Shown in pieces: positions 11,601 through 30,674 of a stretch of 48,628 nucleotides of DNA. Every line of letters starts with the position of its first letter. Position 1 is the first letter of the stretch. Source of the stretch: Halobacteriaceae archaeon (GTDB taxonomy: Archaea > Halobacteriota > Halobacteria > Halobacteriales > Halobacteriaceae); contig JBDGTS010000021.1 of the NCBI GenBank assembly GCA_042216675.1, forward strand, positions 1-48,628, read 5' to 3'. Position numbers and translations under genes: made by a program. The notes under the pieces were generated by a model. That model had not been told where the DNA came from and did no database searches. It saw nothing but the letters and a program-made list of their open reading frames with translations.

Positions 11601-11683
11601 GTGTGTTGAGTGCGGCCGGGGGGACTTAAGTCGCACCCCCGTGGGAGCAAGGCTTTTGTTCGTGCCCTGATGAAACCTGAGTA

Positions 11684-13625: not shown

Positions 13626-14525
13626 CTACTGATGGCGGATGTTCACCTCGATCTCGTTGGCCATCCCAAGGAGCATGTCCGCGATGTCGTTCGTGAGGCG
13701 GTCCTTCGTCATCCGCCGCGCGGGGCCGCCGACGCTGATGGCGCCGTAGACGCCGCCGTCGACGCGGCGGATGGGTGCACCGGCCGCGTGAACGCCCTCC
13801 ATCGATTCCTCGAAGTTGAACGCGATACCGCGCTCCCGGATCTCGGCGAGTTCGTTGTAGATGTCGTCGTGAGTCGTGATCGTCCGTTCGGTTTCGGCGT
13901 CGAGATCCATCTCCTCGAAGTCCTCGTCGAAGTCGTCGTCGGCGAGGAACTGGCGCGGTGCGTCCGAGAGGATGGCCTGCCGTGCGCTGACGGGGTCGCC
14001 CTCCGACGAGGGCCTCGTGGTGTCGGCCGCCTCAAGGTCGGTCGCTTCGACGATTTCCTCGATTCGCTCGTCCGGGAGGAACGCGAGAATCGCCTTTCCG
14101 GCGGCGATATCGTGGAGCGTCCGGTGCTCGCCGACGTGCTCGTGGGTTTGGATGGCCCGCCGCCCCGTCGCTCCGTAGAGATACACTGCCTGCCCGTTCC
14201 GCTCGATGACACACCACGCGCGCTCGTTGGTTTCCTCGGCGAGTTCGTCCACGCTCTGCTTGGCCGCCTTGAAGAGAGGGTGGTTGTTCCGCGCGAAGAT
14301 GCCGTAGTCGAGGAAGCGAAAGCCCACGTCGTACTGACCGTCGGTCCGGTCGAGGAAGCCGTGTTCCTCGAGGGTCGTGAGGTGGCCGTGAACCGTGCTC
14401 TTCGCCATGTCGAGTTCCTCGGCGATTTCGGTCACGCCGTGGCGGTCGTCCTCCCGAATCGCCCGCAGGATGGCGAGCAGGTTCTCGTCCGATTGTACCG
14501 TGTTCGACGTCCCGTCGGTGCCCAT
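13626..14525 (-). CDS. IclR family transcriptional regulator with an internal insertion
   Basis: HTH GVTEIAEELDMAKSTVHGHLTTL. Effector domain with AAGKAILA, IRERGIAFNFEE and GAISVGGP. Confidence 0.93.
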   Translation of the reverse strand: MGTDGTSNTVQSDENLLAILRAIREDDRHGVTEIAEELDMAKSTVHGHLTTLEEHGFLDRTDGQYDVGFRFLDYGIFARNNHPLFKAAKQSVDELAEETNERAWCVIERNGQAVYLYGATGRRAIQTHEHVGEHRTLHDIAAGKAILAFLPDERIEEIVEATDLEAADTTRPSSEGDPVSARQAILSDAPRQFLADDDFDEDFEEMDLDAETERTITTHDDIYNELAEIRERGIAFNFEESMEGVHAAGAPIRRVDGGVYGAISVGGPARRMTKDRLTNDIADMLLGMANEIEVNIRHQ

Positions 14526-14585
14526 GCTCCGACCATGTCGAACCACGGTTATAGTCCTTGCTCGGGTCGCAAACTGTTCGACGCG

Positions 14586-14676
14586 TGTTCGATTCTGACG
14601 AACAGGGTACCACTCCCGTCCTATATTCGTCGACGACAGCGCCTCAAATTATATCGCGTTCACTCTCGCCGAACGC
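14586..14676. promoter_or_regulatory. Two palindromes, TGTTCG-N7-CGAACA (14586-14604) and GCGTTC-N9-GAACGC (14656-14676), upstream of the IclR gene
   Basis: Perfect 6-bp inverted arms that share a GTTC-N9-GAAC core. Confidence 0.6.
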
Positions 14677-15950
14677 TATCGACCTGTCCCGACCGGCCCG
14701 AACTTCTCGATGGCGCGCCGGAGTTCAGCGTGGTCTTCGGCGTACTCTTCGAGGGGGACGCCCTCCATCGCGGCCGCCCAGCCCTGTTTGAGGTGCTCGA
14801 CGCCCGCGGCCGGGCCGTCAGGATGGCCCACGATGCCGCCGCCGGCGAGGTACATGCAGTCGACGTTTCCGAGCGCCTCGTACGTGTCGGGGGCCTGTCC
14901 CGCCCACTGTCCCGAGGAGAATACGGGCATCGCCACGTCGTCCTCCGCGATGGGGCGCTGGAGCGACTGAGCGGACTCGATGACCGACTCGTCGGACTCG
15001 CAGAACTTGTTCCGGATGCCGTTGACGTGAATGTGGTCGACGCCGGCCATCCGGAAGAGCTTCTGGTACGCCGTGAACTCGAAGCCCAGCTGTGGGCACC
15101 GGGAGAGCGCCCCCCAGCCGTTGCGGTGGCCGTGGATGGGGACCTCCGCGTGTTCGCGTAGCTTCGTCACGGCGCCGAGCCCGACGCTGTTCAGACTCAC
15201 CATCACGCAGTTCCCGCCCGCCTCCACGACGGCGTCGTGGCGCCGTAGCATCTCGTCCACGTCGCCGGTGATGTTGCAGGCGTACATCACCTCCTTGCCC
15301 GTCTCGGCCTCGTGTCTGTCGAGGACATCCATCACCGCTTCGATGCGCTCTTCGACGGGCGAGTACGGCGGGCTCGCGATCAGTTCGTCGTCCTTGATGA
15401 AGTCCACCCCCGCCGCCGCGAGGTCCGAGACGAGGTTCGCGGTGTCCTCGGGTTCGAGGCCGACGCTCGGCTTGATTATCGTCCCCACGATGGGGCGGTC
15501 CTGAACGTCCACCACGTCGCGGGTCCCCTCGATGCCGAAGGCGGGGCCGGGATAGGTCTCCGCAATCACGTCTGGAATCTCCACGTCGAGGAGGCGCAGG
15601 CCCGTGAAGTAGCGCAACTCGAAGAGGTTGCCCGCCACCGTCGTCTTGAGGTTCGGCAACGAAGCGCCGACGTTCTCGACGGGGATCGAGAGCTCCACTT
15701 CGGCGCGGGTGTACTCGTCGGGGTCGCCGTCGGATGGTGGTTCCGCGCCCGGGAGCGTCGGCTCGGATACCGTCCCGAGTTCCGTGATAGACTCCACGCT
15801 GGCGGCGTGTCGCTCCCGCAGTTCGTCCGTCTCGCCGGGCACATCGACGAACGTCCCCGAGGACTGCTCGCCGGCCATCGCCTCCGCCGCCTCGGAGAGC
15901 GGATGGGCCGTCTCGATGCGGTACGTCGCGCTGAAGCGCTCCGAAGCCAT
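14676..15950 (-). CDS. oiaT: RuBisCO-like protein (form IV), probable 3-oxo-isoapionate-4-phosphate transcarboxylase/hydrolase (OiaT; decarboxylase OiaX not excluded)
   Basis: AGEQSSGTF, GTIIKPSVGL, DFIKDDE, HGHRNG and GGGIVGHP motifs. Loop 6 is non-canonical (HVNGIRNKF). Divergent from an ApnO-like gene, with an OiaK-like kinase nearby. Confidence 0.75.
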   Translation of the reverse strand: MASERFSATYRIETAHPLSEAAEAMAGEQSSGTFVDVPGETDELRERHAASVESITELGTVSEPTLPGAEPPSDGDPDEYTRAEVELSIPVENVGASLPNLKTTVAGNLFELRYFTGLRLLDVEIPDVIAETYPGPAFGIEGTRDVVDVQDRPIVGTIIKPSVGLEPEDTANLVSDLAAAGVDFIKDDELIASPPYSPVEERIEAVMDVLDRHEAETGKEVMYACNITGDVDEMLRRHDAVVEAGGNCVMVSLNSVGLGAVTKLREHAEVPIHGHRNGWGALSRCPQLGFEFTAYQKLFRMAGVDHIHVNGIRNKFCESDESVIESAQSLQRPIAEDDVAMPVFSSGQWAGQAPDTYEALGNVDCMYLAGGGIVGHPDGPAAGVEHLKQGWAAAMEGVPLEEYAEDHAELRRAIEKFGPVGTGR

Positions 15951-15976
15951 CGTGACCACCCCTTCCGGCGCCCGGG

Positions 15977-16010
15977 TAGTAACTCTCCCGGTGGCGGAAT
16001 TACTATTGTA
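15977..16010. promoter_or_regulatory. Back-to-back TATA-like elements (TAGTAA...TTACTA inverted repeat) for the RLP and apnO genes
   Basis: TAGTAA at 15977-15982 and TTACTA at 16000-16005, each 27-40 nt from the respective ATG. Confidence 0.5.
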
Positions 16011-16039
16011 GTGGGGCGCGCCGCTGTTGGTGCGCGACC

Positions 16040-16885
16040 ATGACTCTCGCACTCACACTCGTCGGTGCCGGCGGCAAGATGGGGACTCGAATCACCGACG
16101 CCCTCGCGGACGACTCGGCCTACGACGTGCGCCACGTCGAACCGGGCGAGGATGGGCGCGAACGGCTTCGTGAACGGGGCGTCGAGCCGATACCACTCGA
16201 CGACGCCCTCGACGGCACCGACGCCGTCGTGATGGCCGTCCCGGACGAGGTCATCGGCGACGTCTGCACGGACGTGATCGAGCGTCTCGATGGGGATGCG
16301 CTGATCCTCCTCCTCGACCCTGCGGCCGCGTACGCCGGCGCCCTCCCGGACTCGGACGGCGTCTCCTACGTCGTCGCCCATCCCTGCCACCCCCCGCTGT
16401 TCACCGACGGCCTCGACGTGGACCCGGACGCCCGCGCGAACGACTACTTCGGCGGCGACGCGGCGCAGAGCGTCGTCTGCGCTCTTCACCGCGGCGACGA
16501 GGCCGACTACGACCGCGGCGCGCGCATCGCCCGCGACGTGTACGCCCCGGTCATCGACGTCCATCGACTGACGACCGAACAGATGGCGATTCTCGAACCC
16601 GCCCTCGTCGAGACGGTGACCGCGACGCTCCTCTACGCGATGCGGGAGGGACTGGAGCGCGCCGTCGAGATGGGCGTCCCCGAGGCGGCGGCCCGCGACT
16701 TCCTGTACGGCCATCTTCGCACGGAAGCGGCCATCGTCTTCGGCGAAGCCGACTTCCCGCTCTCGGACGCCGCACAGGCCGCCGTCGAGGACGCGATAGA
16801 CGACATCTTCACCGACGGCTGGGCGGATGCGGTGTTCGACCGGGAGGCCGTGCGTGAGAGCACGGCGCGAATCGCGTCGGAATAA
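16040..16885 (+). CDS. apnO: D-apionate oxidoisomerase-like protein (Rossmann fold plus PGDH C-terminal-like domain)
   Basis: GAGGKMG Rossmann motif, LDPAAAYAG, HPCHPPLF, QMAILEPALVET and ARDFLYGH. Adjacent to the RLP gene. Confidence 0.82.
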   Translation: MTLALTLVGAGGKMGTRITDALADDSAYDVRHVEPGEDGRERLRERGVEPIPLDDALDGTDAVVMAVPDEVIGDVCTDVIERLDGDALILLLDPAAAYAGALPDSDGVSYVVAHPCHPPLFTDGLDVDPDARANDYFGGDAAQSVVCALHRGDEADYDRGARIARDVYAPVIDVHRLTTEQMAILEPALVETVTATLLYAMREGLERAVEMGVPEAAARDFLYGHLRTEAAIVFGEADFPLSDAAQAAVEDAIDDIFTDGWADAVFDREAVRESTARIASE

Positions 16886-16915
16886 GGGATCGGTATCGGT
16901 TCGAGCGCCGTGCCG

Positions 16916-18889
16916 TCACTCGGTCTGGCCGCGGGCGCCGAGACGTTGCATGAAGTAGTAGCCGCCGCCGTAGAGCGGGTCGTGGTCCTCGTTGGGCACC
17001 GCGAACGTCCCGTCCGGGGCCGGCTGTGCCCAGTTCATCGCCTCGTCGTTCACCATGAAGCCGCCCATCCACGGCATCAGCGGGATGTTCGTGAGGTGGT
17101 AGGCGTACGTCCACACCAGCTTCTTCGTCGCCTCCGCGTGGGCCGAGGGGTTCTCCGTCTCGAAGCCCTTGGTCAGTTCCCGCGGATGGACCGTCTCTGT
17201 GGGTTCGGCGTCCATCTCCCCGATGGGCGGCACCTTGTACTTCTCGGGCACGGGCCCCGCGGGCCACACTGCGCCGGGCACGAGGTGGCCACGCGCTTCG
17301 AGGCCGACCGGAAGCTTGTCCTGGTTCCACCCCATCACCGCGCCGTAGCTACCCTGGTTATAGTGCTTCCAGACCTGGGAGCCGAGCGTCTGCAGTTCGG
17401 TCTTGACGCCGAAGTCCTTGAGGTCGTTGTGAATCGTCCGCATCATCGACACGTCCGTGGACGACGCCTGAATGACGAACTTGAGGGGGTCGCCGTTGGG
17501 CTTCGTCCACGTCCCGCCCTCCTTCGTCAGGCCAGCCTCCTCGAAGCGCTGGGCGGCCATCTCCAAGTCGCGCGCCGTGTAGGAGGGTAGGTCGTTCTCG
17601 TAGAAGTCCGGGAACCGCCCCTTGACGCGGTGGACCGAGCTCGGATGCGCCTTCTGGAACGGGTCGATGAGGTCCGCAGCGCGGGACCCGAGGTGGTTCG
17701 CCAGCACGTCCGAGAATTTGATGGCGTGACCGATACCCTGCCGGACCTTGGCCTGTTGCGCTCCCGCGACCCACTCTTCACGGGGCTTGTCCGTGTCGAT
17801 TCCCATGTACGGGTCGATCTTCCCCCCGTAGTTCATTTTCAGCGTCCAGCCGGCGGCCGTGGCGTAGGTGACCTGCTTGACCTGGTCGGGCACGGAGTTG
17901 TTGGGGATGCTGTCCGGAATCTGGGTGTCCGAGATGTGGATGTCGCCCGACTTGAGCGCCTGGTACCCTGCACTGGAGCCACCGCCGACGACCTTGATTT
18001 CGAGCGTCCGCGGCGTCGTGGCGTCCGACTTCGCGACCCAGTGGTCCTCGTTGAGCGTGAAGCGCGCGGTCTGGGGGTTCGCGGTCTCCAGCATCCACGG
18101 AGTACAGATCGGCGGATCGTCGGCCAGCGTGATCTCCTTGTTCGCGACTTCTTTCCGGATGGCCGACTTCTCCTCCTTCGTGGACGCCGACCGGAGCTCC
18201 TCCAGCTTCGTCCCGAAGAAGCCGTTCCGGTACGTCGTGATGTACTGGGACTCGAGGTCCGAGGTCACCACCTCGATGTTGTATCCGTTGGGGTTGAGTT
18301 CCATCACGAACGTGCGGTCGTTATCGCCCTCGACGCGCCAGCCGACGACCGCGGGGTTCTCGGGCCGGTTCTTCTTCGGGGTCATGCGACGTTGCAGTTC
18401 GAACCACGTCTTGAGGTCCCCGGCGGTGAACGGATCGATCGTCTCGCCACCCTGCGTCCAGTACACGTCTTCGCGGACCTGCACGCGGAGTTCGTTGTTC
18501 TCCTGGTCCTCGGTCCAGCCGAGGACGGACAGCGGAATCCAGTCGTAGTTGTGCGTCTCGGAGTCGGTGCCGGTGTGGGTGTACACCTGCCGGCTCAGGT
18601 CGCCGTTGGGGTTCGCCGCCCACCAGTTCAGGTTCGCGGAGGGGATGTCCGTGGACGTCTCCCTGAGGTGCCACTTCAGCGTGTCCTCGACGATTTTTGG
18701 GCCGCTCGTGGTCGTCGACGACCCGTTCCCGCCGTCGCCCCCACTGCTGGTGTCGGTGGGGTCGTTCGAACTGCCGCCACCGCTCGAACAGCCCGCCATG
18801 GCCACGACTGACGCTGCTGCAGCGGATTGCAGACAGCGGCGACGGCTGAACCTAGTACTCCCATTCTCGCCTCTGCCATCATCTGGCAT
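16916..18889 (-). CDS. ABC substrate-binding lipoprotein, family 5 (Dpp/Opp-type, probably oligosaccharide-binding)
   Basis: Tat signal FSRRRCL, lipobox MAGC, a Ser/Gly/Thr linker, and VREDVYW and KVRQGIGHAI motifs. Confidence 0.85.
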   Translation of the reverse strand: MPDDGRGENGSTRFSRRRCLQSAAAASVVAMAGCSSGGGSSNDPTDTSSGGDGGNGSSTTTSGPKIVEDTLKWHLRETSTDIPSANLNWWAANPNGDLSRQVYTHTGTDSETHNYDWIPLSVLGWTEDQENNELRVQVREDVYWTQGGETIDPFTAGDLKTWFELQRRMTPKKNRPENPAVVGWRVEGDNDRTFVMELNPNGYNIEVVTSDLESQYITTYRNGFFGTKLEELRSASTKEEKSAIRKEVANKEITLADDPPICTPWMLETANPQTARFTLNEDHWVAKSDATTPRTLEIKVVGGGSSAGYQALKSGDIHISDTQIPDSIPNNSVPDQVKQVTYATAAGWTLKMNYGGKIDPYMGIDTDKPREEWVAGAQQAKVRQGIGHAIKFSDVLANHLGSRAADLIDPFQKAHPSSVHRVKGRFPDFYENDLPSYTARDLEMAAQRFEEAGLTKEGGTWTKPNGDPLKFVIQASSTDVSMMRTIHNDLKDFGVKTELQTLGSQVWKHYNQGSYGAVMGWNQDKLPVGLEARGHLVPGAVWPAGPVPEKYKVPPIGEMDAEPTETVHPRELTKGFETENPSAHAEATKKLVWTYAYHLTNIPLMPWMGGFMVNDEAMNWAQPAPDGTFAVPNEDHDPLYGGGYYFMQRLGARGQTE

Positions 18890-19029
18890 GGTAGGTCAAC
18901 TCAACCCCATGCTGATAAAATTTTCCATGGATTATAATCGGCTACTGTCACACGCCTATCGTGTCTGCGGAATCGCCGACCGGCGAAAGACGTAATACCT
19001 CCCCATCGGAGAATCGAAGCGCACCCGCA

Positions 19030-20061
19030 ATGAGCGCACATCCCATCGACTACGAGACGCTGTCCGAGTGGACCGAACCGTTCCGGGACTGGCACTACTA
19101 CCCGGAGCACGTCATCGACCCCGAACCCGGAATCGACGGACATCCAGACGTGGTCCGAACGGACGTGCCGACCGTGTACCAGATTCCGGGTGACGACCGG
19201 TACTACATGTCGTTCGTCGGGTTCAACGGCGACGGCTACAAGACGTTCGTCGCGGAGAGCGAGGACCTCGTCCACTGGTCCGAGCCCCGCCTCGCGATGG
19301 GCTTCGGCCCGGAGGACGGCTTCGACCACGGCGGGGTCATCCTCGGCGCCTACCTCTACGACTCCTACGACCTCGACGCGCCGCGGCGACTGAAGCGCCA
19401 CGACGGCTACTACTGGAGCCTCTACGGCGGCTACCCCCGACAGGGGTCGTACGAACCCCGACCCGGTGCGGAGGGCCTCGCCCGGAGCGAGGACGGCATC
19501 CACTGGGAGCGTGCGACCGAGGACCCGATTCTCTCGGTGTACGACGCCGACTGCGGCGACTGGGAGCAGAGCTGTATCTACCAGCCGTGGCTCGTGGAGC
19601 ACGAGGGGACCTACTACAACTTCTACAACGCCGCGGAGGGGTCCGTCGAGCAGACCGGGCTGGCCGTCTCCGACGACCTGTACGAGTGGGAGCGCTCCGA
19701 CCGGAACCCCATCGTCGAGACGGGGCCGCCCGCGAGCTACAACTCACAGTTTTCCTCGGACCCGAAGGTGTTCCGCCACGACGACCACTGGGTGATGCTG
19801 TTCTTCGGCGTCGGTCGCGACGGCGCGCACATCATGGCGGCGTTCTCCTGGGACCTCCAGCACTGGACCGTCAACCCCGAGCCGCTGTACCGCGCGGGCG
19901 GGCATCCGGACGGGCTCGACGAGCGCTTCGCGCACAAGATTTCGCTCGTCTACGAGGCGGACGAGGACCGCTACTACATGTTCTACAACGCCGTGGGCGA
20001 TGCGGGCCGCGGCATCGGCCTCCTCACCAGCGAGCCGCTTTCGGACGTGGAGCGCCCCTGA
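19030..20061 (+). CDS. Five-bladed beta-propeller glycosidase, GH137-like (beta-L-arabinofuranosidase candidate)
   Basis: Repeated SxDxxxW blades (SEDLVHW, SEDGIHW, SDDLYEW, SWDLQHW). N-terminal DVPTV...YMSFVGFNGDGYKTFVAES. Confidence 0.7.
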   Translation: MSAHPIDYETLSEWTEPFRDWHYYPEHVIDPEPGIDGHPDVVRTDVPTVYQIPGDDRYYMSFVGFNGDGYKTFVAESEDLVHWSEPRLAMGFGPEDGFDHGGVILGAYLYDSYDLDAPRRLKRHDGYYWSLYGGYPRQGSYEPRPGAEGLARSEDGIHWERATEDPILSVYDADCGDWEQSCIYQPWLVEHEGTYYNFYNAAEGSVEQTGLAVSDDLYEWERSDRNPIVETGPPASYNSQFSSDPKVFRHDDHWVMLFFGVGRDGAHIMAAFSWDLQHWTVNPEPLYRAGGHPDGLDERFAHKISLVYEADEDRYYMFYNAVGDAGRGIGLLTSEPLSDVERP

Positions 20062-20116
20062 CGCGGCTGTTCACCCCCACAGTTAAGAGGTCGCACGGTG
20101 ACGAATCCATCACGCG

Positions 20117-20971
20117 ATGCTCACCTTCGCACCGGGAGTCACCGGGTCGGGTAGCGCCGTCGTCGCGCTGAGCGCGGTTCTGCTCGTCGGTGCGTCGGCG
20201 TTTGCCACCGTCGCGTACGTACCGCGGGCGCGCTCGCTCGTCGAACGGGAACGAGAGCGGACCGCCACGGAGCGGGACGCGTTCGTCGCCTTCGCGAGCG
20301 AAGTGTCGTCGCTCGACGCGTCTCTCTCCAGTGCGCGCCGAGAGCCGTCGTCAGCGGCGGGCGGGACGGCGCGCCTCGCGGGCACCGACCGGGGCGGAGG
20401 GTCCCAGACCAGACGGATCGTGCGTGCGTACCGCGACACAGTTCTCGCTGTGGATCACCGCGACAGCGTCGAGGAGTCGCTCGCGCGGAATCTGGCCGCG
20501 GAGCTCGGCACCGACCTGGCCGCGCCTCTCCTCGACGGAGCGACCGTCTCGCCACAGCTTCAAGCGGCCCTCGCGCGGCGGGCCCGGGCGGTGGCCGACA
20601 CCCGCGACTCGGCCGTCACCGAGCTCGACAGGGAGGCCGACGCGCTCGCGGACGCCGAGCGGACCCTCGACGACGTGGCGAGCGACGTCGACGAACTCGG
20701 CGTCGAACCGGCGCGGCGCCTGTCCTTCGAGGCACTGTTCGAGGAGTGGACACGCCTCGGCGACGTCCAGTCGCGCGTCGAGGCCCTGCTCGACGACCGC
20801 CAACGTGACCTCCACGCCCGCGACGGAAGTGGTAATCTCAAGCGGGGGCTCGCGTTCGTCTACGGGCCGCTCCCGGTCCGTCACCCGGTCCTCGCGGCGG
20901 GGGTGGAACTCGCCAATCGGATTCGCGAGGCACGCGAAACGCGGGCGTCGCGGCTGACGTGGCGCTCTTGA
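20117..20971 (+). CDS. Haloarchaeal hypothetical helical protein (DUF7260-like) with an N-terminal TM segment
   Basis: ERERTATERDAFVAF, RAYRDTVLAVDH, LAAELG, DDRQRDLH and HPVL motifs resemble a recurrent haloarchaeal family. Confidence 0.65.
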   Translation: MLTFAPGVTGSGSAVVALSAVLLVGASAFATVAYVPRARSLVERERERTATERDAFVAFASEVSSLDASLSSARREPSSAAGGTARLAGTDRGGGSQTRRIVRAYRDTVLAVDHRDSVEESLARNLAAELGTDLAAPLLDGATVSPQLQAALARRARAVADTRDSAVTELDREADALADAERTLDDVASDVDELGVEPARRLSFEALFEEWTRLGDVQSRVEALLDDRQRDLHARDGSGNLKRGLAFVYGPLPVRHPVLAAGVELANRIREARETRASRLTWRS

Positions 20972-20996
20972 CCGGGCCGGGCCGGGCCGGGCCGGG
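20972..20996 (+). repeat. Perfect (CCGGG)5 tandem repeat
   Basis: Read directly, between a stop codon and the TTTGAAG box upstream of the kinase gene. Confidence 0.9.
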
Positions 20997-21031
20997 ATGG
21001 TTTGAAGTGTCCCGCTCGCCACGCCGACAGC

Positions 21032-22384
21032 ATGGACGAACCGTTGCTCGCCTTCTACGGCGACGACTTCACGGGATCGACTGACGCGCTCGAGGGCCTC
21101 GCGTTGAACGGCGTGCGCGCGATGCTGTTTCTCGACCCGCCCACATCCGCGGAACTCGCGGCCGTCGGCGACCTCGACGCCGTCGGCGTGGCCGGCCGCT
21201 CACGCTCGATGAGCCCCGAACAGATGGACGAGACCCTCCCCGACGTGTTCCGGGCGCTGGGTGACCTCGAACCCGAGATGATTCACTACAAGGTGTGCTC
21301 GACGTTCGACTCAGCGCCCGACGTGGGGAGCATCGGCCGCGCAATCGACGTGGCACAGTCGACGCTCGATTCGCCGTTCGTTCCCGTCTCGCAGGCCTCG
21401 ACGGTCCCGGCGGGCCGCTACGTCGCCTTCGGGAACCTCTTCGCGGCGGAGGGCGACGACGTGTACCGCATCGACCGCCACCCGACGATGCGCGACCACC
21501 CGACGACGCCGATGCGCGAGAGCGACTTGCGCCGTCACCTCGGCGAGCAGACGGACCGCGACATCGGCCTCGTCGACCTCCGGCAACTGGAGCGCGGCGC
21601 GGTGTCGCTCCCCGAGTCTGAGGTGGTAGTCTTCGACGCCATCGCGCCGCGGCACCTCCACACCATCGGCGAGTTCCTCTGGGACCGCGCGACGGCCGCC
21701 GACGGCCCCCTCTTCGCCGTCGGGTCGTCGGGACTCGAACACCACGCGCTCACGACTCGGTGGGCCGAGACGGGCGCTATTCCGGACACGGACTCGTTGC
21801 TCGAACCCCACCCGCCGGTGGAACAGGTCGCCGTCGTCTCCGGGAGTGCGTCCCCGGTGACGGATCGACAGATACAGCGCGCGGCCGACGACGGCTTCGC
21901 CACCCTCCGCCTCGACGCGCCGCGCCTCGTCGACCCCGACGAGGCGGCCGCGGCCCGCGAGGACGCCCTCGACGCCGCACTCGCCGCGGTCGAAGATGGG
22001 CGGAGCGTCGTCCTCTACACGGCGCGTGGTCCCGACGACCCCGCCATCGAGCGGACGCGCGAGCGGTACGCGGCCCTCGACTGCGACGAGAGCATGGGCG
22101 CGCGCCTCGGCCGTGAGCAGGGCCGCGTGTTCCGGGCCCTCATCGCGGAGAGTGGGCTCGAGCGCGTCTGCGTCGCTGGCGGCGACACGAGTGGCTACGT
22201 CGTCCCCCAACTCGACGCCTACGCGCTCGAACCGGTCGCGCCCACCGCGCCCGGCGCGCCGCTCTGTCGGATCCACTCGCACACCGACGTCTTCGACGGC
22301 ATCGAAATCACGCTCAAGGGCGGCCAGACGGGCGGCGAGAACTACTTCGAGGCTTTGCGGGCGGGCGGCGTCGACCCGGAATGA
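21032..22384 (+). CDS. oiaK: DUF1537 acid-sugar kinase, probable 3-oxo-isoapionate kinase
   Basis: YGDDFTGSTD, HYKVCSTFDS, GRYVAFGNLFA, DRHPTM, SGSASPVT, AGGDTSG and LKGGQ motifs. Co-located with the RLP and ApnO genes. Confidence 0.8.
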   Translation: MDEPLLAFYGDDFTGSTDALEGLALNGVRAMLFLDPPTSAELAAVGDLDAVGVAGRSRSMSPEQMDETLPDVFRALGDLEPEMIHYKVCSTFDSAPDVGSIGRAIDVAQSTLDSPFVPVSQASTVPAGRYVAFGNLFAAEGDDVYRIDRHPTMRDHPTTPMRESDLRRHLGEQTDRDIGLVDLRQLERGAVSLPESEVVVFDAIAPRHLHTIGEFLWDRATAADGPLFAVGSSGLEHHALTTRWAETGAIPDTDSLLEPHPPVEQVAVVSGSASPVTDRQIQRAADDGFATLRLDAPRLVDPDEAAAAREDALDAALAAVEDGRSVVLYTARGPDDPAIERTRERYAALDCDESMGARLGREQGRVFRALIAESGLERVCVAGGDTSGYVVPQLDAYALEPVAPTAPGAPLCRIHSHTDVFDGIEITLKGGQTGGENYFEALRAGGVDPE

Positions 22385-24049
22385 TCACCACTCGATAGCG
22401 GACCAGCGGCGGCGCAGGTCTGCCTCGCGGTGGCCCGCCTCGTCCCGCACTGTCCGGTCGGCGTACAGCGGATGGTGGTCGCCCTCGGGCGCGACGTCGA
22501 CGACGGTATCGCCGCGCCACGTCACGTTGAAGGACCGATCGGCCGCCGTCGCCGTCGTCTTCGCGTCGCGCACCGGGAACGACACCGACAGCCGGTCACC
22601 GTCGGCCACATTCGAGAGGCGGAGGAAGTCCCCCTCCCAGCCGTCCCGCTCGGCGCCGGAGACGCTCACGCGCGCAGGGTCCACCCACGACGGAACGCGG
22701 ACCCGCAGGCGCGGCACGTCGCGGTTCGCGTCCACCACGACGCGCCCCTCGTGGGGGAGATAGCTGTAGACGTCTACCGCCGGCGTCTCGCGGTTGAGGA
22801 GGAGGTTCACCGACACGTCGTCGCCGTCTGTCGTGACTGCGTGGTGCCACGCGAGGAAGAGGCCGCGAGTCCCCGCTGCGACACAGCACGTCATCACGTC
22901 CGGGTCGTCGCCCACGTCACAGACGAAGTCGTTGGGCGCGGCCCACCCCGGGAACGCGCCGCGCAGTCGCTCGGCCACCTCGTCGTCGCCGAGCCACGCG
23001 GTGTCGCGCAACTGCGTCCCGGCGAGGTGGTTGCGGACGAAGCGCTCGACGCGGCCCCAGTGCTCGGGATAGCCGTGCTCGGCGAGCAAGATTCCGAGTT
23101 CGATCATGTCGACGAGCGCACACGTCTCGTGCTTGTGGACGTAGTCCTCGCGGAGCGCACCCGGGAACCAGCCGAACGCGGTACCCTGCGAGAGCGCCCA
23201 GTCGTATACCGTCGCGGCCCAGTCGAGGGTGGCGGCGTCGTCCGCGGTCAGCGCGTACCGCGCGATGGCGGTGACGCTGACCATTCGGCTGTGGAAGTGG
23301 CCCGTGCGGAACTCCACGCCGTCGTTGAAGCTCCCGTCGTCGTTGAACGCGCCGCTGTACTCGACGGTGTGACGCGTGAACTCCCGGGAGAGGTCGAGCG
23401 CGTCGTGGTTGCCCGTCAGTTCGTGGTAGCGCGCGAGCGGATTGATCATCCGGGCGCTGGTGTGGGCCGGATCCGTCGCCAGACCGAGGTAGATGGTGTC
23501 CGGCGACGGCCAGCCGTCGCGCGTGTACTCGACGGCCGGGAAGTACCAGAAGTCCTGCTTCTCGAGGTGAGGGTGCCCCTCCTTGACGGCGATGCGGCGG
23601 AGCGCCGCACACAGGTCGTCGGCGGCGTCGCGCACGTCCGGGTCTGACTCCTGCATGTACCACGTCACCAACCCCAACAGCACCGAACGCTGATCGTGCA
23701 TGTTGGCACGGGGTTCGGTGTGCTCGGACGCCGCACGGTAGTTGAGGCCGTCGTCATCGAACATGTCGAGGAGCCGCTCCCTGAGGTCAGCCTCCACGTC
23801 GCGGCCGGTGTCTGCCCCCGTCATCTCGCGGGCCAGCGCGATGGAGCTGACGAGGCGGCCGACGCTACTGCCGTAGTCCCAACTCGAGTGTGCCAGCGAG
23901 GGCGGCGACGCGGTGAGGTCGGCGGTCATGTACGGCCGCCCGTCGTCCGCGTCGAGACAGCGCGTGAGCGCGTTGAGCGCGGTGCGGGCGCGGTCTTCCA
24001 GCGAGAGCGTGTCGGGAACGGTCCCGTCCCCGGGCGGTGTGTCAACCAT
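22385..24049 (-). CDS. GH127/GH146-like cysteine glycosidase (beta-L-arabinofuranosidase/aceric acid hydrolase superfamily), divergent
   Basis: HETCA and MTCC zinc/nucleophile motifs, ERFVRNHL and a C-terminal LRVRVPSW sandwich. The true start is ATG 24049. Confidence 0.7.
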   Translation of the reverse strand: MVDTPPGDGTVPDTLSLEDRARTALNALTRCLDADDGRPYMTADLTASPPSLAHSSWDYGSSVGRLVSSIALAREMTGADTGRDVEADLRERLLDMFDDDGLNYRAASEHTEPRANMHDQRSVLLGLVTWYMQESDPDVRDAADDLCAALRRIAVKEGHPHLEKQDFWYFPAVEYTRDGWPSPDTIYLGLATDPAHTSARMINPLARYHELTGNHDALDLSREFTRHTVEYSGAFNDDGSFNDGVEFRTGHFHSRMVSVTAIARYALTADDAATLDWAATVYDWALSQGTAFGWFPGALREDYVHKHETCALVDMIELGILLAEHGYPEHWGRVERFVRNHLAGTQLRDTAWLGDDEVAERLRGAFPGWAAPNDFVCDVGDDPDVMTCCVAAGTRGLFLAWHHAVTTDGDDVSVNLLLNRETPAVDVYSYLPHEGRVVVDANRDVPRLRVRVPSWVDPARVSVSGAERDGWEGDFLRLSNVADGDRLSVSFPVRDAKTTATAADRSFNVTWRGDTVVDVAPEGDHHPLYADRTVRDEAGHREADLRRRWSAIEW

Positions 24050-24139
24050 CGGCGTATCGGGGCCTGCTCCCCGACCCGTAATAATTGCACCGGGGGTCGC
24101 GCCACGAACATTTATGTCGTTGCTCCGTTCCGATGCGGT

Positions 24140-24922
24140 ATGGCGTTGCCAGATCTCCTCGACGACGAGGTAGCCGTCGTTACCGGCGGCGCGAGCGGAA
24201 ACGGCCGGCAGATCGCTCTCAGCTTCGCCGAACAGGGCGCCGACGTAGTCGTGGCCGACCTCACCGACGAACCACGAGAGGGTGGCGTACCCACACACGA
24301 GCGCATCCGCGAAGAGACGGATGCAGACGCGGCGTACGTCGAGTGTGACGTGTCCGACGTGGACGACGTGTACGCGGCCGTCGATTCGGCGGAACAGTTC
24401 GGCGGCGTGACCGTGATGGTGAACAACGCTGGCATCACCGAGAGCCAGTCCTTCGCGGAGACGACGGAAGCGGAGTTCGACCAGATGATGGACGTGAACG
24501 TGAAGGGTGTCTTCTTCGGCGCGCAGGCCGCCGCACGCTCCATGGCGGAGGGCGACCGCCGGGGCTCTATCGTCAACATCTCCAGCACGTCGGGTCTGCG
24601 CGGCCGCGGGGACGGCGTGCGCTACTGCACCTCGAAGGGCGCGGTGCGCCTGATGACCTACGCGCTGGCCGACGCCCTCGCGCCCCGGATTCGCGTCAAC
24701 GCGATCCATCCCGACTACACGGAGACGGCGATGACGCGCGACGACCTCGACATGATCGGCACCGACGAGGGCGCGCGCTACGTTGAGGAGAACCTCCTCC
24801 TCGACCGGCCGAGCCAACCCGACGACATCGCCAACGCCGCGCTCTACCTGTCGAGCGACCTCGGGTCCTTCGTCACCGGTCACTCGCTCGTCGTGGACGG
24901 TGGCGTGACGGCGACGAAGTGA
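24140..24922 (+). CDS. SDR family oxidoreductase (sugar dehydrogenase-like)
   Basis: TGGASGNG, NNAG, YCTSK, IRVNAIHP and VDGG motifs. Confidence 0.93.
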   Translation: MALPDLLDDEVAVVTGGASGNGRQIALSFAEQGADVVVADLTDEPREGGVPTHERIREETDADAAYVECDVSDVDDVYAAVDSAEQFGGVTVMVNNAGITESQSFAETTEAEFDQMMDVNVKGVFFGAQAAARSMAEGDRRGSIVNISSTSGLRGRGDGVRYCTSKGAVRLMTYALADALAPRIRVNAIHPDYTETAMTRDDLDMIGTDEGARYVEENLLLDRPSQPDDIANAALYLSSDLGSFVTGHSLVVDGGVTATK

Positions 24923-24966
24923 CCGCCGTCGGTACATATATGGCGCCCCCCACGCAGGAGGGCAAC

Positions 24967-25962
24967 ATGGAGTACACGACTCTCGGTGACACCGGACTCG
25001 AAGTGAGTCGTATCGGTCTCGGTTGCATGTCCTTCGGCGACCCGGATTGGCGAGACTGGGTCCTCGGCGAGGACGAGAGCCGCGAGATCATCGAGCGCGC
25101 GATCGACCTCGGTATCAACTTCTTCGACACCGCGAACCAGTATTCGACAGGCGAGTCCGAGCGCATCCTCGGGACCGTCCTCGACGACTACGACCGGGAC
25201 TGGCCGGTGGTGGCGTCGAAGGTGTACAACCCGATGGACCCCGACAACCCGAACGCGGAGGGCCTCTCACGGAAAGCCATCGAGCAGGAACTGCAGAACA
25301 GTCTCGACCGACTGGGCATGGACACCATCGACCTGTATCAGATCCACCGCTGGGACTACGACACGCCCATCGAGGAGACGGTGCGCGCCCTCGACGACGC
25401 CGTGCGGCGCGGCGACGTGCGCTATCTCGGTGCCTCCTCGATGTGGGCCCATCAGTTCGCGGACGCCATCCGCACGGCGGACGCCCTCGGCGCCGAACAG
25501 TTCGTCTCGATGCAGAACCACTACAACCTCGCGTACCGCGAGGAGGAGCGCGAGATGCTTCCGTTCTGTCGCAAACACGGCATCGGCGTCGTGACCTGGA
25601 GCCCGCTCGCGCGGGGCTTCCTCGCGCGGCCTCACGAGACGTTCGCGGACACCACGCGCGGCGACCAGAGCCTCGAACGCGGCGACGTAGTCACGGACAT
25701 GATCCGGACCTACCGCGCGAACGGCGGCGACGAAATCAACGAGCGCGTGCAGGAACTGGCCGACGAGAAGCAGGTGTCGATGGCGCAGATCGCGCTCGCG
25801 TGGCTCCTTCACAAGGACACCGTGGACGCTCCCATCGTCGGAACGACGAGCGTCGAACACCTCGAAGACGCCGTCGAAGCCCTCGACATCGACCTCTCGG
25901 ACAGCGACATCGAGTGGCTCGAAGAGCCCTATCAGCCCGTCCCCGTCGTCGGGCACGAGTGA
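24967..25962 (+). CDS. Aldo/keto reductase
   Basis: GLGCMSFG, FFDTANQY, DLYQIHRWD, QNHYNL and WSPLARG motifs. Confidence 0.93.
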   Translation: MEYTTLGDTGLEVSRIGLGCMSFGDPDWRDWVLGEDESREIIERAIDLGINFFDTANQYSTGESERILGTVLDDYDRDWPVVASKVYNPMDPDNPNAEGLSRKAIEQELQNSLDRLGMDTIDLYQIHRWDYDTPIEETVRALDDAVRRGDVRYLGASSMWAHQFADAIRTADALGAEQFVSMQNHYNLAYREEEREMLPFCRKHGIGVVTWSPLARGFLARPHETFADTTRGDQSLERGDVVTDMIRTYRANGGDEINERVQELADEKQVSMAQIALAWLLHKDTVDAPIVGTTSVEHLEDAVEALDIDLSDSDIEWLEEPYQPVPVVGHE

Positions 25963-29558: not shown

Positions 29559-30649
29559 CGGTCGTCGGGATACCAGTCGTCGGTGACCGTCGCGGGGTCT
29601 ACCGCCGCCCCCGTGGCCGCGGACTTGTACGTCGCGTTCGCCAGGCGGAGGGTATCGAGGTTGTCGGCCGGGTGGGTCGGGGGTCGCCCCCCGTCCTCAG
29701 CCGCGGCGAGCAGGGTCCCCATCGGCCCCACGAAGGCGTCGGGGACCCACGCGTCAGGGACGGTGCGCGACTCCCACTCCGCGTCGCGGCCGAGGCGGTA
29801 CTCGAAGGTGTCGGGCGCGCCCTCGGGATAGTCGTCGAAGAGGCCGATGGTGCCCCGGACGACGCCCTCGGTGCCCTCGACGCGGAACTCCGCGTAGGCG
29901 TCGGCCCAGTTGTTGTGATTCACGTCCACCGTCGCGAACAGGTCGCCGGGGTACTCCAGCACGTGGAGCGTCCGCGTCTCGGCCGCCGCCTCCTGATACG
30001 GCGCCCGCGCCATCGTCGACCGGACGCGCTCGGGGTCGCCGAGGAGGAAGCGCAGGGCGTCGAGGTAGTGGAGGCTGTGGAACATCACCTCGAGGCGCGG
30101 CGCATCGAGGAGCCAGTCCCACCCGCTCCAGTCCGTGTCGATGTTGACCTCGATTTTGGCCCGGAGCGGTTCGCCGAGTGCGCCTGATTCGAGCAGGTCC
30201 CCGACGGCGCGGACGGACTTCTGCCAGCGCATCTGCTGGTTCACGGCGGCGGTCACGTCCGCGTCTTCTACTGTCGAGACGAGCGCTCGCGCGTCGTCCA
30301 TCGACTCAGCGAGTGGTTTCTGACACAGGACGTGGCGCCCGCTCTCGACGACGCGCTCCACGATGTCGTACTGGTACTGGGGCGGGACGGCCACGTCCAC
30401 GACGTCCACCGCCGGATCGTCGAGGACGGCGTCGAGGTCCTCGTACACGGACAGCGAGCGGTCGGCGTCGTCGGCAACCGTCGCCGCACGCTCCGGGTCG
30501 GCGTCCATCACGCCGCGCACGTCGAAGCCGGCGCGCCGGTACGCCGGCAGGTGCGCCGCCTCGACGATGGCGCCCGCGCCGACGACGGCGATGCCGCGGC
30601 CGTGGTCGTCGTATTCCGCCGCGTAGTCGCGCTCGGTGTTCGGCTCCAT
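29555..30649 (-). CDS. Gfo/Idh/MocA family NAD-dependent oxidoreductase
   Basis: GAGAIV...HLPAY, HVLCQKPLA (Q in place of the usual E), VNQQMRW and HYLD motifs. Confidence 0.9.
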   Translation of the reverse strand: MEPNTERDYAAEYDDHGRGIAVVGAGAIVEAAHLPAYRRAGFDVRGVMDADPERAATVADDADRSLSVYEDLDAVLDDPAVDVVDVAVPPQYQYDIVERVVESGRHVLCQKPLAESMDDARALVSTVEDADVTAAVNQQMRWQKSVRAVGDLLESGALGEPLRAKIEVNIDTDWSGWDWLLDAPRLEVMFHSLHYLDALRFLLGDPERVRSTMARAPYQEAAAETRTLHVLEYPGDLFATVDVNHNNWADAYAEFRVEGTEGVVRGTIGLFDDYPEGAPDTFEYRLGRDAEWESRTVPDAWVPDAFVGPMGTLLAAAEDGGRPPTHPADNLDTLRLANATYKSAATGAAVDPATVTDDWYPDDR

Positions 30650-30674
30650 GTGCCCGACCACAGGACGGCCCCGA

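What the first reader, a model, noticed from the sequence alone, without database searches (positions are those of the whole stretch)
14676..22384. RuBisCO-like-protein-based D-apionate catabolic pathway in a haloarchaeon
Seen: a form IV RLP (KDDE retained, non-canonical loop 6) divergent from an ApnO-like gene, with a DUF1537 kinase about 4 kb further on. Known: in bacteria ApnO, OiaK and an RLP convert D-apionate via 3-oxo-isoapionate 4-phosphate to either 3-phosphoglycerate plus glycolate (OiaT) or L-erythrulose 1-phosphate plus CO2 (OiaX). Inference: the three-step core is complete here. With no LerI/DerI isomerases in the window, the OiaT route is favoured. I know of this pathway only from bacteria, so an acidic, salt-adapted archaeal version probably reflects horizontal acquisition.
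Basis: partly seen in the sequence, partly recalled or inferred. Interest (0 to 1): 0.9.

Follow-up and report, generated by a model that had tools for sequence, protein, structure and literature searches.

The report
Haloarchaeal RuBisCO-like D-apionate breakdown genes
A salt-lake archaeon carries salt-adapted copies of the three bacterial genes that break down the branched plant sugar acid D-apionate, one of them a RuBisCO look-alike, set among many sugar-cutting enzymes; this extends a known bacterial pathway to archaea but its activity is untested.

Summary
The window is a whole 48.6-kb contig of an 80%-complete haloarchaeal genome. It holds:
- a form IV RuBisCO-like protein (RLP, 14676-15950, minus strand), with KDDE and the loop-6 lysine kept;
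- an ApnO-family gene (16040-16885) transcribed divergently from it, 89 bp away;
- a DUF1537 kinase (21002-22384) 4.1 kb further on.

The ApnO-like protein keeps all nine catalytic residues that I mapped. The kinase's best family model is OiaK.

The RLP lies outside the long-branched OiaX decarboxylase clade. It scores 503 bits on the OiaX model (cut-off 700), as OiaT-labelled relatives do (444-462). At the positions where OiaX differs from the rest of the family it keeps Asn108, His308 and Glu28. No RpiB-type isomerase and no second TIM was found in the genome. An OiaT-type route to 3-phosphoglycerate plus glycolate is therefore favoured. It is not proven, because the tree backbone is unresolved (AU p = 0.28).

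Orthologues occur in 12 of 400 sampled haloarchaeal species, and the nearest bacterial relatives are Chloroflexota. The proteins are fully acidic and match the genome's G+C, so any transfer is old.

The genes sit in a glycoside-hydrolase-rich locus (GH127-like, GH137-like, GH78, GH42, GH2, GH29).

Verdict: a new archaeal member of a known pathway, of moderate interest.

The parts
13626..14546 (-). IclR-family transcriptional regulator, just downstream of the RLP on the same strand; the likely local regulator.
   Evidence: Pfam IclR_C 112.7 bits and HTH_IclR 56.9 bits. IclR homologues also lie beside the RLP cluster in 4 other haloarchaeal loci (cluster c8).
14676..15950 (-). Form IV RuBisCO-like protein (424 aa). 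Proposed 3-oxo-isoapionate-4-phosphate transcarboxylase/hydrolase (OiaT-like).
   Evidence: Pfam. NCBIfam OiaX model 503 bits against a cut-off of 700. Best solved structure 3nwr, 426 bits. Carries the OiaT-type residue at 28 of 43 discriminating columns, including N108, H308 and E28. Outside the OiaX clade.
15951..16039 (.). 89-bp spacer between the divergent RLP and ApnO-like genes; presumed shared promoter region.
   Evidence: Read directly from the sequence. No promoter test was run.
16040..16885 (+). ApnO-family NAD-dependent oxidoisomerase (281 aa). Proposed D-apionate to 3-oxo-isoapionate step.
   Evidence: PF16896 166 bits. 5t57 241 bits. D68, D92, H113, H116, F133, E183, E188, H222 and S239 (AaApnO numbering) are kept, as in all 41 aligned ApnO-likes. 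It is the only PF16896 gene found in the genome.
16916..18889 (-). Family-5 ABC substrate-binding protein (657 aa); candidate oligosaccharide binder.
   Evidence: Pfam SBP_bac_5 94.8 bits. Opp/Dpp-type ATPase and permease genes lie at 34844-39249.
18961..20061 (+). Beta-propeller glycosidase, GH137-like.
   Evidence: NCBIfam NF049877 (beta-D-glucuronidase/beta-L-arabinofuranosidase) positions 46-352, 87.8 bits, far below the 1800 cut-off. Pfam GH32N and GH130 propeller matches. Homologues of 30-37% identity lie near RLPs in L005, L038, L054, L063, L069 and L071.
20117..20971 (+). DUF7260 protein; role unknown.
   Evidence: Pfam PF23921 192.7 bits.
21002..22384 (+). DUF1537 four-carbon-acid-sugar-type kinase. 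Proposed 3-oxo-isoapionate 4-kinase (OiaK-like). The start is probably the ATG at 21032.
   Evidence: SBD_N and NBD_C. NCBIfam OiaK 436.8 bits (cut-off 700) against OtnK 179 bits. The kinase beside a true OiaX scores 477 on the same model.
22385..24049 (-). Divergent GH127-like glycosidase (about 554 aa).
   Evidence: Weak Pfam matches to the GH127 middle domain (E 7e-4) and catalytic domain (E 0.015). Homologues of 40-47% identity sit beside the RLP or kinase in L030, L047, L063, L077 and L103, and a homologue is in the G031 locus (cluster c27).
24170..24922 (+). SDR of the 'glucose 1-dehydrogenase' subfamily; candidate aldose (apiose) 1-dehydrogenase.
   Evidence: NF005559 257.3 bits, above the 215 cut-off. 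37% identical to the SDR upstream of the RLP in Cupriavidus pinatubonensis.
24919..25962 (+). Aldo/keto reductase; possible sugar dehydrogenase or reductase.
   Evidence: Pfam Aldo_ket_red 245.6 bits. AKR genes flank oiaX in Rhizobium sp. CCGE531.
29555..30688 (-). Gfo/Idh/MocA oxidoreductase; a weaker candidate for apiose 1-dehydrogenase.
   Evidence: Pfam. 28-31% identical to the Gfo/Idh/MocA genes in three OiaX clusters and 37% to the one in the Croceibacterium locus.

Best explanation
The three genes encode the core of an oxidative D-apionate pathway in a haloarchaeon.

Proposed steps:
1. The ApnO-like enzyme uses NAD+ and a two-metal centre to oxidise D-apionate at C2 and shift a hydroxymethyl group, giving 3-oxo-isoapionate.
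2. The DUF1537 kinase phosphorylates the 4-hydroxyl with ATP.
3. The RLP takes 3-oxo-isoapionate 4-phosphate, which resembles RuBisCO's own carboxylated keto intermediate. Most likely it moves the carboxyl group and hydrolyses the product to 3-phosphoglycerate plus glycolate (OiaT-type, 'route 2').

Apionate probably comes from D-apiose released from apiose-bearing pectic glycans by the surrounding glycosidases. The neighbouring SDR, AKR or Gfo/Idh/MocA dehydrogenases may oxidise the apiose. No lactonase was identified.

Shown here: gene identity, conserved catalytic residues, gene linkage and phyletic pattern. Inferred: the substrate, the products and the feeding steps.
For: - Family matches.
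- ApnO-like: 9 of 9 mapped catalytic residues are kept, and its pocket residues are the majority state among 41 ApnO-likes (residue roles from PMC13753588, sections read).
- Kinase: OiaK is the best model, at 437 bits against 179 for OtnK. The kinase next to a genuine OiaX scores 477, and the Cupriavidus necator N-1 kinase scores 760.
- Linkage: the kinase lies beside the RLP in 85 of 87 bacterial loci and 11 of 12 haloarchaeal loci. ApnO lies within 10 kb in 40 of 87 bacterial loci.
- Co-occurrence: all 12 RLP-bearing sampled haloarchaea have the kinase and 7 of 12 have ApnO.
- Not OiaX: the window RLP scores 503 bits. True OiaX scores 780. The RLP beside the cutoff-passing OiaK of C. necator scores 444, and a Xanthobacteraceae RLP about 80% identical to proteins that JGI names OiaT scores 462.
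- Discriminating columns: at 43 columns that separate OiaX from OiaT-labelled sequences, the window has the OiaT state at 28, the OiaX state at 11 and neither at 4. At E28, N108, N226, H308 and four more columns, all 75 other bacterial and all 16 haloarchaeal sequences agree against OiaX.
- No onward route: no PF02502 gene and only one TIM in the genome.
- Glycolate: one GlcD-type FAD oxidase is present for possible glycolate use.
Against: - No biochemistry exists for any archaeal member.
- The residues shared with OiaT are also the ancestral RuBisCO states, so they show that OiaX changes are absent, not that OiaT chemistry is present.
- The tree backbone is unresolved. Haloarchaeal RLPs do not fall inside the OiaT-labelled clade, and the AU test does not reject haloarchaea plus OiaX as one clade (p = 0.28).
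- The sequence of the characterised Xanthobacter OiaT was not available to me. The OiaT label comes from automated JGI names on 8 of 120 listed hits.
- ApnO is promiscuous in vitro, acting on D-erythronate, D-ribonate and others.
- Five of 12 RLP-bearing haloarchaeal genomes and 5 of 5 tested bacterial genomes have no PF16896 gene at all, so the RLP-kinase pair does not need ApnO everywhere.
- No GH140 apiosidase, no lactonase in the window, and no homologue of the 652-aa protein typical of ApnO-bearing clusters were found.
- The genome is only 80% complete.
- Both the RLP and the kinase score below their NCBIfam equivalog cut-offs.
Confidence: 0.55

Rival explanations
1. Same apionate pathway, but the RLP is a plain decarboxylase (OiaX-like in function). 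It makes L-erythrulose 1-phosphate plus CO2, which other enzymes then handle, for example an aldolase or isomerases on unassembled contigs.
For: - OiaX is the only named model that the RLP hits strongly (503 bits).
- The AU test does not reject haloarchaea plus OiaX as one clade (p = 0.28).
- The window has the OiaX residue at 11 of 43 discriminating columns.
- The genome is 80% complete, so isomerases could have been missed.
Against: - The score is 277 bits below that of a true OiaX and in the range of the non-OiaX relatives.
- None of the eight OiaX-specific changes (such as N108G, H308Q, E28D) is present.
- The OiaX clade has a long stem, 0.97 changes per site with support 100, and excludes all haloarchaeal rows.
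- No RpiB-type gene or second TIM was found.
Confidence: 0.15
2. The trio acts mainly on another sugar acid, such as D-erythronate, D-ribonate or an unknown acid from the local glycan. ApnO would serve as a one-step 3-oxo-acid maker and the RLP would process the phosphorylated 3-oxo acid.
For: - A bacterial ApnO oxidises D-erythronate, D-ribonate, L-lyxonate and L-rhamnonate with kcat/Km of 123-274 per min per mM.
- Other haloarchaeal RLP-kinase loci carry TRAP or GntP acid transporters, SDRs, Zn-ADHs and an HpcH aldolase, which are general sugar-acid genes.
- Two sampled haloarchaea have ApnO plus the kinase without the RLP.
Against: - Where characterised, 3-oxo-tetronate 4-phosphate is handled by OtnC, not by an RLP.
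- The kinase matches OiaK far better than OtnK, 437 against 179 bits.
- The Km values reported for D-apionate with the four characterised ApnOs (0.13-0.27 mM) are lower than those for the other acids.
- An RLP fits a substrate with a tertiary carboxylated carbon; this point is an inference from chemistry.
Confidence: 0.12
3. The RLP-kinase pair belongs to an undescribed pathway for a second branched acidic sugar freed by the GH127-type enzyme, for example aceric acid of rhamnogalacturonan II. ApnO's presence in this window would then be an add-on.
For: - In ApnO-less bacterial loci the RLP-kinase pair travels with true GH127 (15 loci against 2 with ApnO), an Asp/Glu-racemase-family gene (20 against 1), an SDR (14 against 4), GH78 (9 against 0) and GH42 (8 against 0).
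- Whole genomes of 5 such bacteria and of 5 haloarchaea lack PF16896.
- The window has a GH127-like gene, an SDR and an AKR next to the kinase.
- That a GH127 enzyme of Bacteroides thetaiotaomicron releases aceric acid is recalled, not checked here.
Against: - No alignment column separates RLPs of ApnO-bearing loci (37) from those of GH127/racemase-linked ApnO-less loci (24) at the 80% level. This argues for one RLP chemistry.
- In the window, ApnO shares a promoter region with the RLP.
- No Asp/Glu-racemase-family homologue was found in the window's genome.
- No chemistry has been tested.
Confidence: 0.07

Closest known systems
OiaT, 3-oxo-isoapionate-4-phosphate transcarboxylase/hydrolase (Xanthobacter autotrophicus; 'route 2': ApnO-OiaK-OiaT)
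   Same: It uses the same three gene families. The window RLP is 57% identical to Xanthobacteraceae RLPs whose close relatives carry JGI's OiaT name. The active-site states are the same at all columns where OiaX departs from the family. There are no onward isomerases.
   Different: The host is archaeal and the proteins are strongly acidic. The RLP is not inside the OiaT-labelled clade. The kinase is separated from the RLP by four inserted genes. The genes are embedded in a glycosidase locus rather than a sugar-acid cluster. The characterised OiaT sequence was not seen (Carter et al. 2018 not held). The organism names come from a passage in PMC6302742.
[quoted passage not shown]
   Same: It is the best-scoring named model, belongs to the same superfamily branch, and has the same ApnO and kinase partners.
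   Different: Identity is only 44-48%. The score is 503 bits against 780 for a true OiaX. The window has N108, H308 and E28 where OiaX has G, Q and D. OiaX clusters carry Gfo/Idh/MocA plus a roughly 600-aa protein, or TIM and RpiB genes, none of which has an equivalent here.
ApnO, D-apionate oxidoisomerase (PDB 5t57; AaApnO of PMC13753588)
   Same: PF16896 fold. About 46% identity to the Cupriavidus necator N-1 protein. All catalytic and metal-binding residues are kept.
   Different: Pocket positions differ from AaApnO (S187V, V225T, L226E, F238L, C242A). E226 and A242 are nevertheless the majority state among the 36 other (non-haloarchaeal, non-OiaX-context) aligned bacterial ApnO-likes. pI is 4.15 against a bacterial median of 5.4.
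PDB 3nwr, RuBisCO-like protein (recalled as from Burkholderia fungorum; function not given in the entry name)
   Same: It is the closest solved structure, 426 bits over residues 38-452. A Paraburkholderia fungorum RLP lies in the same family tree (L050).
   Different: It belongs to the Burkholderiales subclade, where ApnO is usually not within 10 km of sequence context shown here, that is, not within 10 kb.
Rhamnogalacturonan-II utilisation loci of Bacteroides thetaiotaomicron (enzyme roles recalled)
   Same: The window combines GH2, GH78, a GH127-like gene, a GH137-like gene, a fucosidase, a GH88/105-like gene and a GDSL esterase. The genome holds 3 GH28 genes elsewhere.
   Different: No GH140 apiosidase family gene was found. 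Uptake is by ABC transporters, not SusCD. The hydrolases are divergent and unassigned. The substrate is unknown.

Membership tests
Form IV RuBisCO-like proteins (not a true RuBisCO) | RuBisCO large-subunit fold, with some ribulose-bisphosphate-binding or catalytic residues replaced. | tested here: met
   Pfam PF00016 and PF02788. K160, K186, D188, E189, H275, R276, H308 and K315 are kept. The positions I map (spinach numbering, recalled) to K177, H298 and W66 are S162, W279 and F34. The score on the form III model is 286 bits, below the 497 cut-off.
OiaX (NF042437 equivalog) | Score at or above the curated cut-off of 700 bits. | tested here: not met
   503 bits. The control OiaX of Rhizobium johnstonii scores 780.
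OiaX (NF042437 equivalog) | Placement inside the OiaX clade, and the clade's own residue changes. | tested here: not met
   The OiaX clade (5 rows) has support 100 and excludes the window. The window lacks all eight clade-specific states. A sister relation of haloarchaea and OiaX is not rejected (AU p = 0.28).
OiaT (transcarboxylase/hydrolase) | Groups with the characterised or labelled OiaT sequences. | tested here: inconclusive
   It belongs to the same slowly evolving family and is 57% identical. It falls in a basal polytomy, not inside the labelled clade. The labels are automated JGI names on 8 of 120 listed hits.
OiaT (transcarboxylase/hydrolase) | Gene neighbourhood with ApnO and OiaK, and no LerI/DerI isomerases. 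| tested here: met
   ApnO is divergent at 89 bp and the kinase lies 5 kb away. No PF02502 gene and one TIM were found in the 80%-complete genome.
OiaT (transcarboxylase/hydrolase) | Forms 3-phosphoglycerate and glycolate from 3-oxo-isoapionate 4-phosphate. | not testable with these tools
   Needs an enzyme assay.
ApnO (D-apionate oxidoisomerase, PF16896) | Conserved two-metal and catalytic residues: D68, D92, H113, H116, E183, E188, H222, S239 (and F133). | tested here: met
   All are present in the window protein and in all 41 aligned homologues. Residue roles come from sections 10, 14 and 15 of PMC13753588.
ApnO (D-apionate oxidoisomerase, PF16896) | Activity on D-apionate. | not testable with these tools
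   Needs an assay. Identity to the characterised type is about 46%, a level similar to that between the characterised ApnOs themselves (39-80%).
OiaK (NF042436 equivalog) | Score at or above the curated cut-off of 700 bits. | tested here: not met
   436.8 bits. The cut-off is very strict: the kinase beside a true OiaX scores 477, the one beside a Xanthobacteraceae RLP 550, and only the C. necator N-1 kinase passes, at 760.
OiaK (NF042436 equivalog) | DUF1537 two-domain kinase that is closer to OiaK than to OtnK or DtnK and is linked to an apionate-type RLP. | tested here: met
   OiaK 437 bits, OtnK 179, DtnK 70. Orthologues of 48-65% identity occur in all 12 RLP-bearing sampled haloarchaea and lie adjacent to the RLP in 11 of them.

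The most novel reading that the evidence does not exclude
The RLP-kinase pair may be the fixed core of a wider, partly ApnO-independent pathway built into rhamnogalacturonan-II-like degradation loci of bacteria and haloarchaea, next to GH127- and GH137-type furanosidases. In about half of the carriers, ApnO would be replaced by a non-homologous front end (an SDR plus an Asp/Glu-racemase-family protein). Alternatively, the pair would also process a second branched acidic sugar such as aceric acid. The divergent GH127-like enzyme would then be the missing glycosidase that frees the branched sugar, in organisms that lack GH140.
Probability: 0.2. Interest if true: 0.75.

Novelty: new member of a known kind. 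Interest (0 to 1): 0.5.

Why it matters
This would be the first archaeal case of RLP-based apiose/apionate catabolism. My literature searches found none reported. 'apiose' plus 'haloarchaea' gave one paper, which was irrelevant. 'RuBisCO-like protein', 'Halobacteria' and 'form IV' gave nothing on haloarchaea.

It matters in three ways:
- It adds to the recent view that haloarchaea in salt lakes feed on complex plant or algal glycans.
- These genes are annotated 'ribulose-bisphosphate carboxylase' in public records, so they can inflate counts of autotrophs in hypersaline metagenomes.
- Salt-adapted OiaT-like enzymes that keep the RuBisCO carboxylation residues could help study how the RuBisCO fold moves a carboxyl group.

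Tried and rejected
- Carter et al. 2018, the source paper for the pathway, is not held under its DOI or its PMC id. Enzyme names and organisms therefore come from passages in PMC13753588 and PMC6302742. Supplements are closed, and the UniProt ids of OiaT/OiaX given there could settle the clade assignment.
- No RNA holder was listed for the stretch, and two DNA holders may be the source sample.
- The AU test of 'haloarchaea plus OiaX as one clade' did not reject it (p = 0.28), so I make no tree-based claim of OiaT membership.
- I first read 22385-24937 as one 850-aa GH127-like gene. tblastn and the ORF translations showed two genes.
- In the bacterial locus clustering, 'cluster 2' (66 of 87 loci) looked like a universal SDR. 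It is an antisense shadow ORF of the RLP and was dropped. Clusters 3, 4, 6, 23 and 27 are probably also shadow ORFs and were not used.
- My first haloarchaeal gene calling used too strict a G+C threshold and was redone.
- I looked for residues separating RLPs of ApnO-bearing loci from those of ApnO-less loci and found none at 80%.
- I searched the genome with the 652-aa 'hypothetical' protein of ApnO-bearing clusters, the Asp/Glu-racemase-family protein and a 530-aa unknown. None matched at E below 1e-8.
- The 266-aa protein found directly upstream of the RLP in 6 haloarchaeal loci has no Pfam match and no copy in the window.
- True RuBisCO function is rejected on the replaced residues and the sub-threshold form III score.
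- Methionine-salvage RLP function is rejected: the MtnW models score 162-213 bits against 503.

Full report
WHAT IS THERE

The window is the whole of contig C12 of a 2.15-Mb, 58-contig genome that is 80% complete. It has 68.5% G+C and comes from a haloarchaeon; two salt-lake metagenome runs hold the stretch. I called genes by third-position G+C and by family searches. The gene order across the finding is:

- IclR regulator, 13626-14546, minus strand
- RLP, 14676-15950, minus strand
- 89-bp spacer
- ApnO-like gene, 16040-16885, plus strand
- Family-5 substrate-binding protein, 16916-18889, minus strand
- GH137-like beta-propeller, 18961-20061, plus strand
- DUF7260 gene, 20117-20971, plus strand
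- DUF1537 kinase, 21002-22384, plus strand
- GH127-like gene, 22385-24049, minus strand
- SDR of the glucose-1-dehydrogenase type, 24170-24922, plus strand
- Aldo/keto reductase, 24919-25962, plus strand
- GH29 fucosidase, 25964-27391, minus strand

The rest of the contig holds GH42, GH2, a GH88/105-like gene, two GH78 rhamnosidases, a GDSL esterase, ABC transporter genes, a Gfo/Idh/MocA oxidoreductase and CoA-related enzymes. The only correction is that the long ORF beside the kinase is two genes.

THE THREE CORE GENES

RLP. The RLP is the only RuBisCO-family gene found in the genome. It keeps 'DFIKDDE' and the loop-6 lysine. Several ribulose-bisphosphate-binding positions are replaced, and it scores well below the form III cut-off, so it is a form IV protein.

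ApnO-like protein. Its best solved relative is 5t57 (241 bits). Over the aligned stretch, 5t57 reads the same as the ApnO-like ORF on plasmid pBB1 of Cupriavidus necator N-1. A 2026 structural study of ApnO names the catalytic and metal residues; I read its abstract and sections 4, 10, 14, 15 and 17 (PMC13753588). All nine residues that I mapped are present in the window protein and in all 41 ApnO-like proteins from my loci. The pocket residues E226 and A242, which differ from the crystallised enzyme, are the majority state among those bacterial homologues.

Kinase. The kinase matches the OiaK model at 437 bits and OtnK at 179 bits. The 700-bit OiaK cut-off is very strict. The kinase beside a PGAP-named OiaX scores only 477, and only the C. 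necator N-1 kinase passes, at 760.

LINKAGE

- Bacteria. I examined 87 bacterial loci holding RLP relatives: 80 from one species-level genome scan plus 7 plasmid loci. The kinase lies beside the RLP in 85 of them, and ApnO lies within 10 kb in 40.
- Haloarchaea. Among 400 sampled haloarchaeal species, 12 have an orthologue of 67-72% identity, and none of the 22 in the window's own family does. All 12 have the kinase, adjacent to the RLP in 11, and 7 have ApnO.
- Compact form. A Halalkalicoccus plasmid shows the cassette as RLP, kinase, ApnO and a GntP-type acid permease.
- Other haloarchaeal loci carry TRAP transporters, SDRs, an HpcH aldolase and IclR regulators.

All of this points to catabolism of a sugar acid.

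WHICH RLP FUNCTION

A passage in PMC6302742 states that the Agrobacterium radiobacter K84 RLP decarboxylates 3-oxo-isoapionate 4-phosphate and that the Xanthobacter autotrophicus RLP does the transcarboxylation/hydrolysis. NCBIfam has a model only for the decarboxylase, OiaX.

- Similarity. PGAP-named OiaX proteins are 44-48% identical to the window RLP, whereas unnamed bacterial RLPs reach 51-58%.
- Trees. In both trees OiaX is a strongly supported clade with a long stem, nested in a large, slowly evolving family. The haloarchaeal sequences form two groups in a basal polytomy beside Chloroflexota sequences.
- Labelled OiaT. Xanthobacteraceae RLPs in the family are about 80% identical to 8 proteins (of 120 listed) that JGI names '3-oxoisoapionate-4-phosphate transcarboxylase/hydrolase'. 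Three of these cluster with the Xanthobacteraceae rows.
- Scores on the OiaX model. The window scores 503, the Xanthobacteraceae RLP 462, the C. necator RLP 444, the Croceibacterium RLP 453 and a true OiaX 780.
- Discriminating columns. At 43 columns that separate OiaX from the OiaT-labelled set, the window has the OiaT state at 28, the OiaX state at 11 and neither at 4. At eight columns every non-OiaX sequence agrees against OiaX (75 other bacterial and 16 haloarchaeal rows). Three of these I map, from recalled spinach numbering, to E60, N123 and H327.

These are ancestral states, so they show only that the OiaX-specific losses did not happen here. The AU test does not reject a haloarchaea-plus-OiaX clade (p = 0.28). 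The genome has no RpiB-type gene and a single TIM, whereas one OiaX locus has TIM and RpiB genes beside it. Taken together, an OiaT-type reaction is the better reading, at roughly 4 to 1 over a plain decarboxylase. It is not established.

ORIGIN

The nearest non-archaeal relatives of the RLP (63-67% identity), the kinase (47-52%) and ApnO (48-51%) are largely the same set of loci, from Anaerolineae and a few other phyla. With the patchy haloarchaeal distribution, this fits transfer of the set as a unit, followed by spread among haloarchaea. The direction of transfer is not shown.

The window proteins have pI 4.15-4.45 and 17-21% Asp plus Glu. Bacterial medians are pI 6.1 for the RLP and 5.4 for ApnO. 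The genes' G+C (0.68-0.71) equals the genome's (0.688). The genes are therefore long resident.

FEEDING STEPS AND CONTEXT

- Candidate apiose dehydrogenases are the SDR, the aldo/keto reductase and the Gfo/Idh/MocA gene, which is 28-31% identical to those in OiaX clusters. The SDR is 37% identical to the one upstream of the RLP in Cupriavidus pinatubonensis. PMC13753588 says that clusters of this type are being studied for a new apiose dehydrogenase.
- No lactonase was identified in the window. Four Amidohydro_2 genes lie elsewhere in the genome.
- No GH140 'Apiosidase' family gene was found, while three GH28 genes were.
- A sponge-derived Croceibacterium plasmid has GH127, a GH137-like gene, RLP, kinase, GH42, a fucosidase, GH2, GH28, a sialidase-family gene and GDSL esterases together. 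The haloarchaeon with one of the closest RLPs (G031) also has the GH127-like gene and a GH78 beside the pair.

The locus therefore looks like a toolkit for a rhamnogalacturonan-II-like or other apiose-bearing glycan. That is an inference from the family mix.

A LOOSE END

The RLP-kinase pair does not always come with ApnO.

- PF16896 was not found anywhere in 5 of the 12 RLP-bearing haloarchaeal genomes, each 99% complete, nor in 5 of 5 tested bacterial genomes. The same search does find the window's own gene, so the method works.
- ApnO-less bacterial loci are enriched for true GH127, an Asp/Glu-racemase-family gene, an SDR, GH78 and GH42.
- No alignment column separates the RLPs of the two contexts at 80%.

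This favours one RLP chemistry with alternative front ends over a second substrate. It does not affect the window, where ApnO shares a spacer with the RLP.

VERDICT

This is a new, archaeal and salt-adapted member of a known bacterial pathway, with the RLP most likely of the OiaT type. The function is inferred from homology, conserved residues and gene linkage only.

Noticed in passing
window 22385-24937: The 850-aa minus-strand ORF is an artefact of high G+C. The real genes are a GH127-like gene of about 554 aa (22385-24049, minus strand) and a divergent SDR (24170-24922, plus strand). The GH127-like protein contains 'ETC' and, about 78 residues later, 'CC'. I recall this as the zinc and nucleophile motif of GH127, but did not test it.
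   Followed up: partly
L028-L107, L001, L003-L005, L108-L110 (87 bacterial loci): ApnO and an Asp/Glu-racemase-family gene are almost mutually exclusive next to the RLP-kinase pair. The racemase-family gene is in 20 ApnO-less loci and 1 ApnO-bearing locus. True GH127 (15 against 2), GH78 (9 against 0) and GH42 (8 against 0) also go with the ApnO-less form. This may be a non-homologous replacement of ApnO or a second substrate.
   Followed up: partly
G144:C9:660656-662956 and G306:C11:26310-31108: Two sampled haloarchaea of one genus have the OiaK-like kinase and ApnO, adjacent in G144, but no RLP orthologue at E below 1e-60. The last step there must differ.
   Followed up: no
L005 (Croceibacterium plasmid NZ_CP156083.1, 162988-188250): A marine sphingomonad plasmid carries the RLP-kinase pair inside a glycan locus (GH127, GH137-like, GH42 twice, fucosidase, GH2, GH28, sialidase-family, GDSL esterases, TonB receptor). 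This closely mirrors the window's enzyme mix.
   Followed up: partly
window 10968-13492: Genes for rod-determining factor RdfA and an archaea-specific SMC-related protein (NF045487, 500 bits) sit between the GH2 gene and the IclR regulator. They look unrelated to sugar use.
   Followed up: no
window 27480-31886: A MaoC dehydratase, an AMP-forming acyl-CoA ligase, a Gfo/Idh/MocA oxidoreductase and a family III CoA-transferase form a block inside the glycosidase locus. Their substrate is unknown.
   Followed up: no
L112, L113, L118, L120, L121, L124 (haloarchaeal loci): A conserved protein of about 266 aa with an internal duplication and no Pfam match lies directly upstream of the RLP in 6 haloarchaeal loci, often with a glyoxalase/VOC gene. 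It is absent from the window.
   Followed up: partly
public annotation of P0003-P0119: The haloarchaeal orthologues are named 'ribulose-bisphosphate carboxylase (large chain / family protein)' by NCBI and JGI. None of the 120 listed hits carries an apionate-pathway name. This could mislead surveys of carbon fixation.
   Followed up: yes
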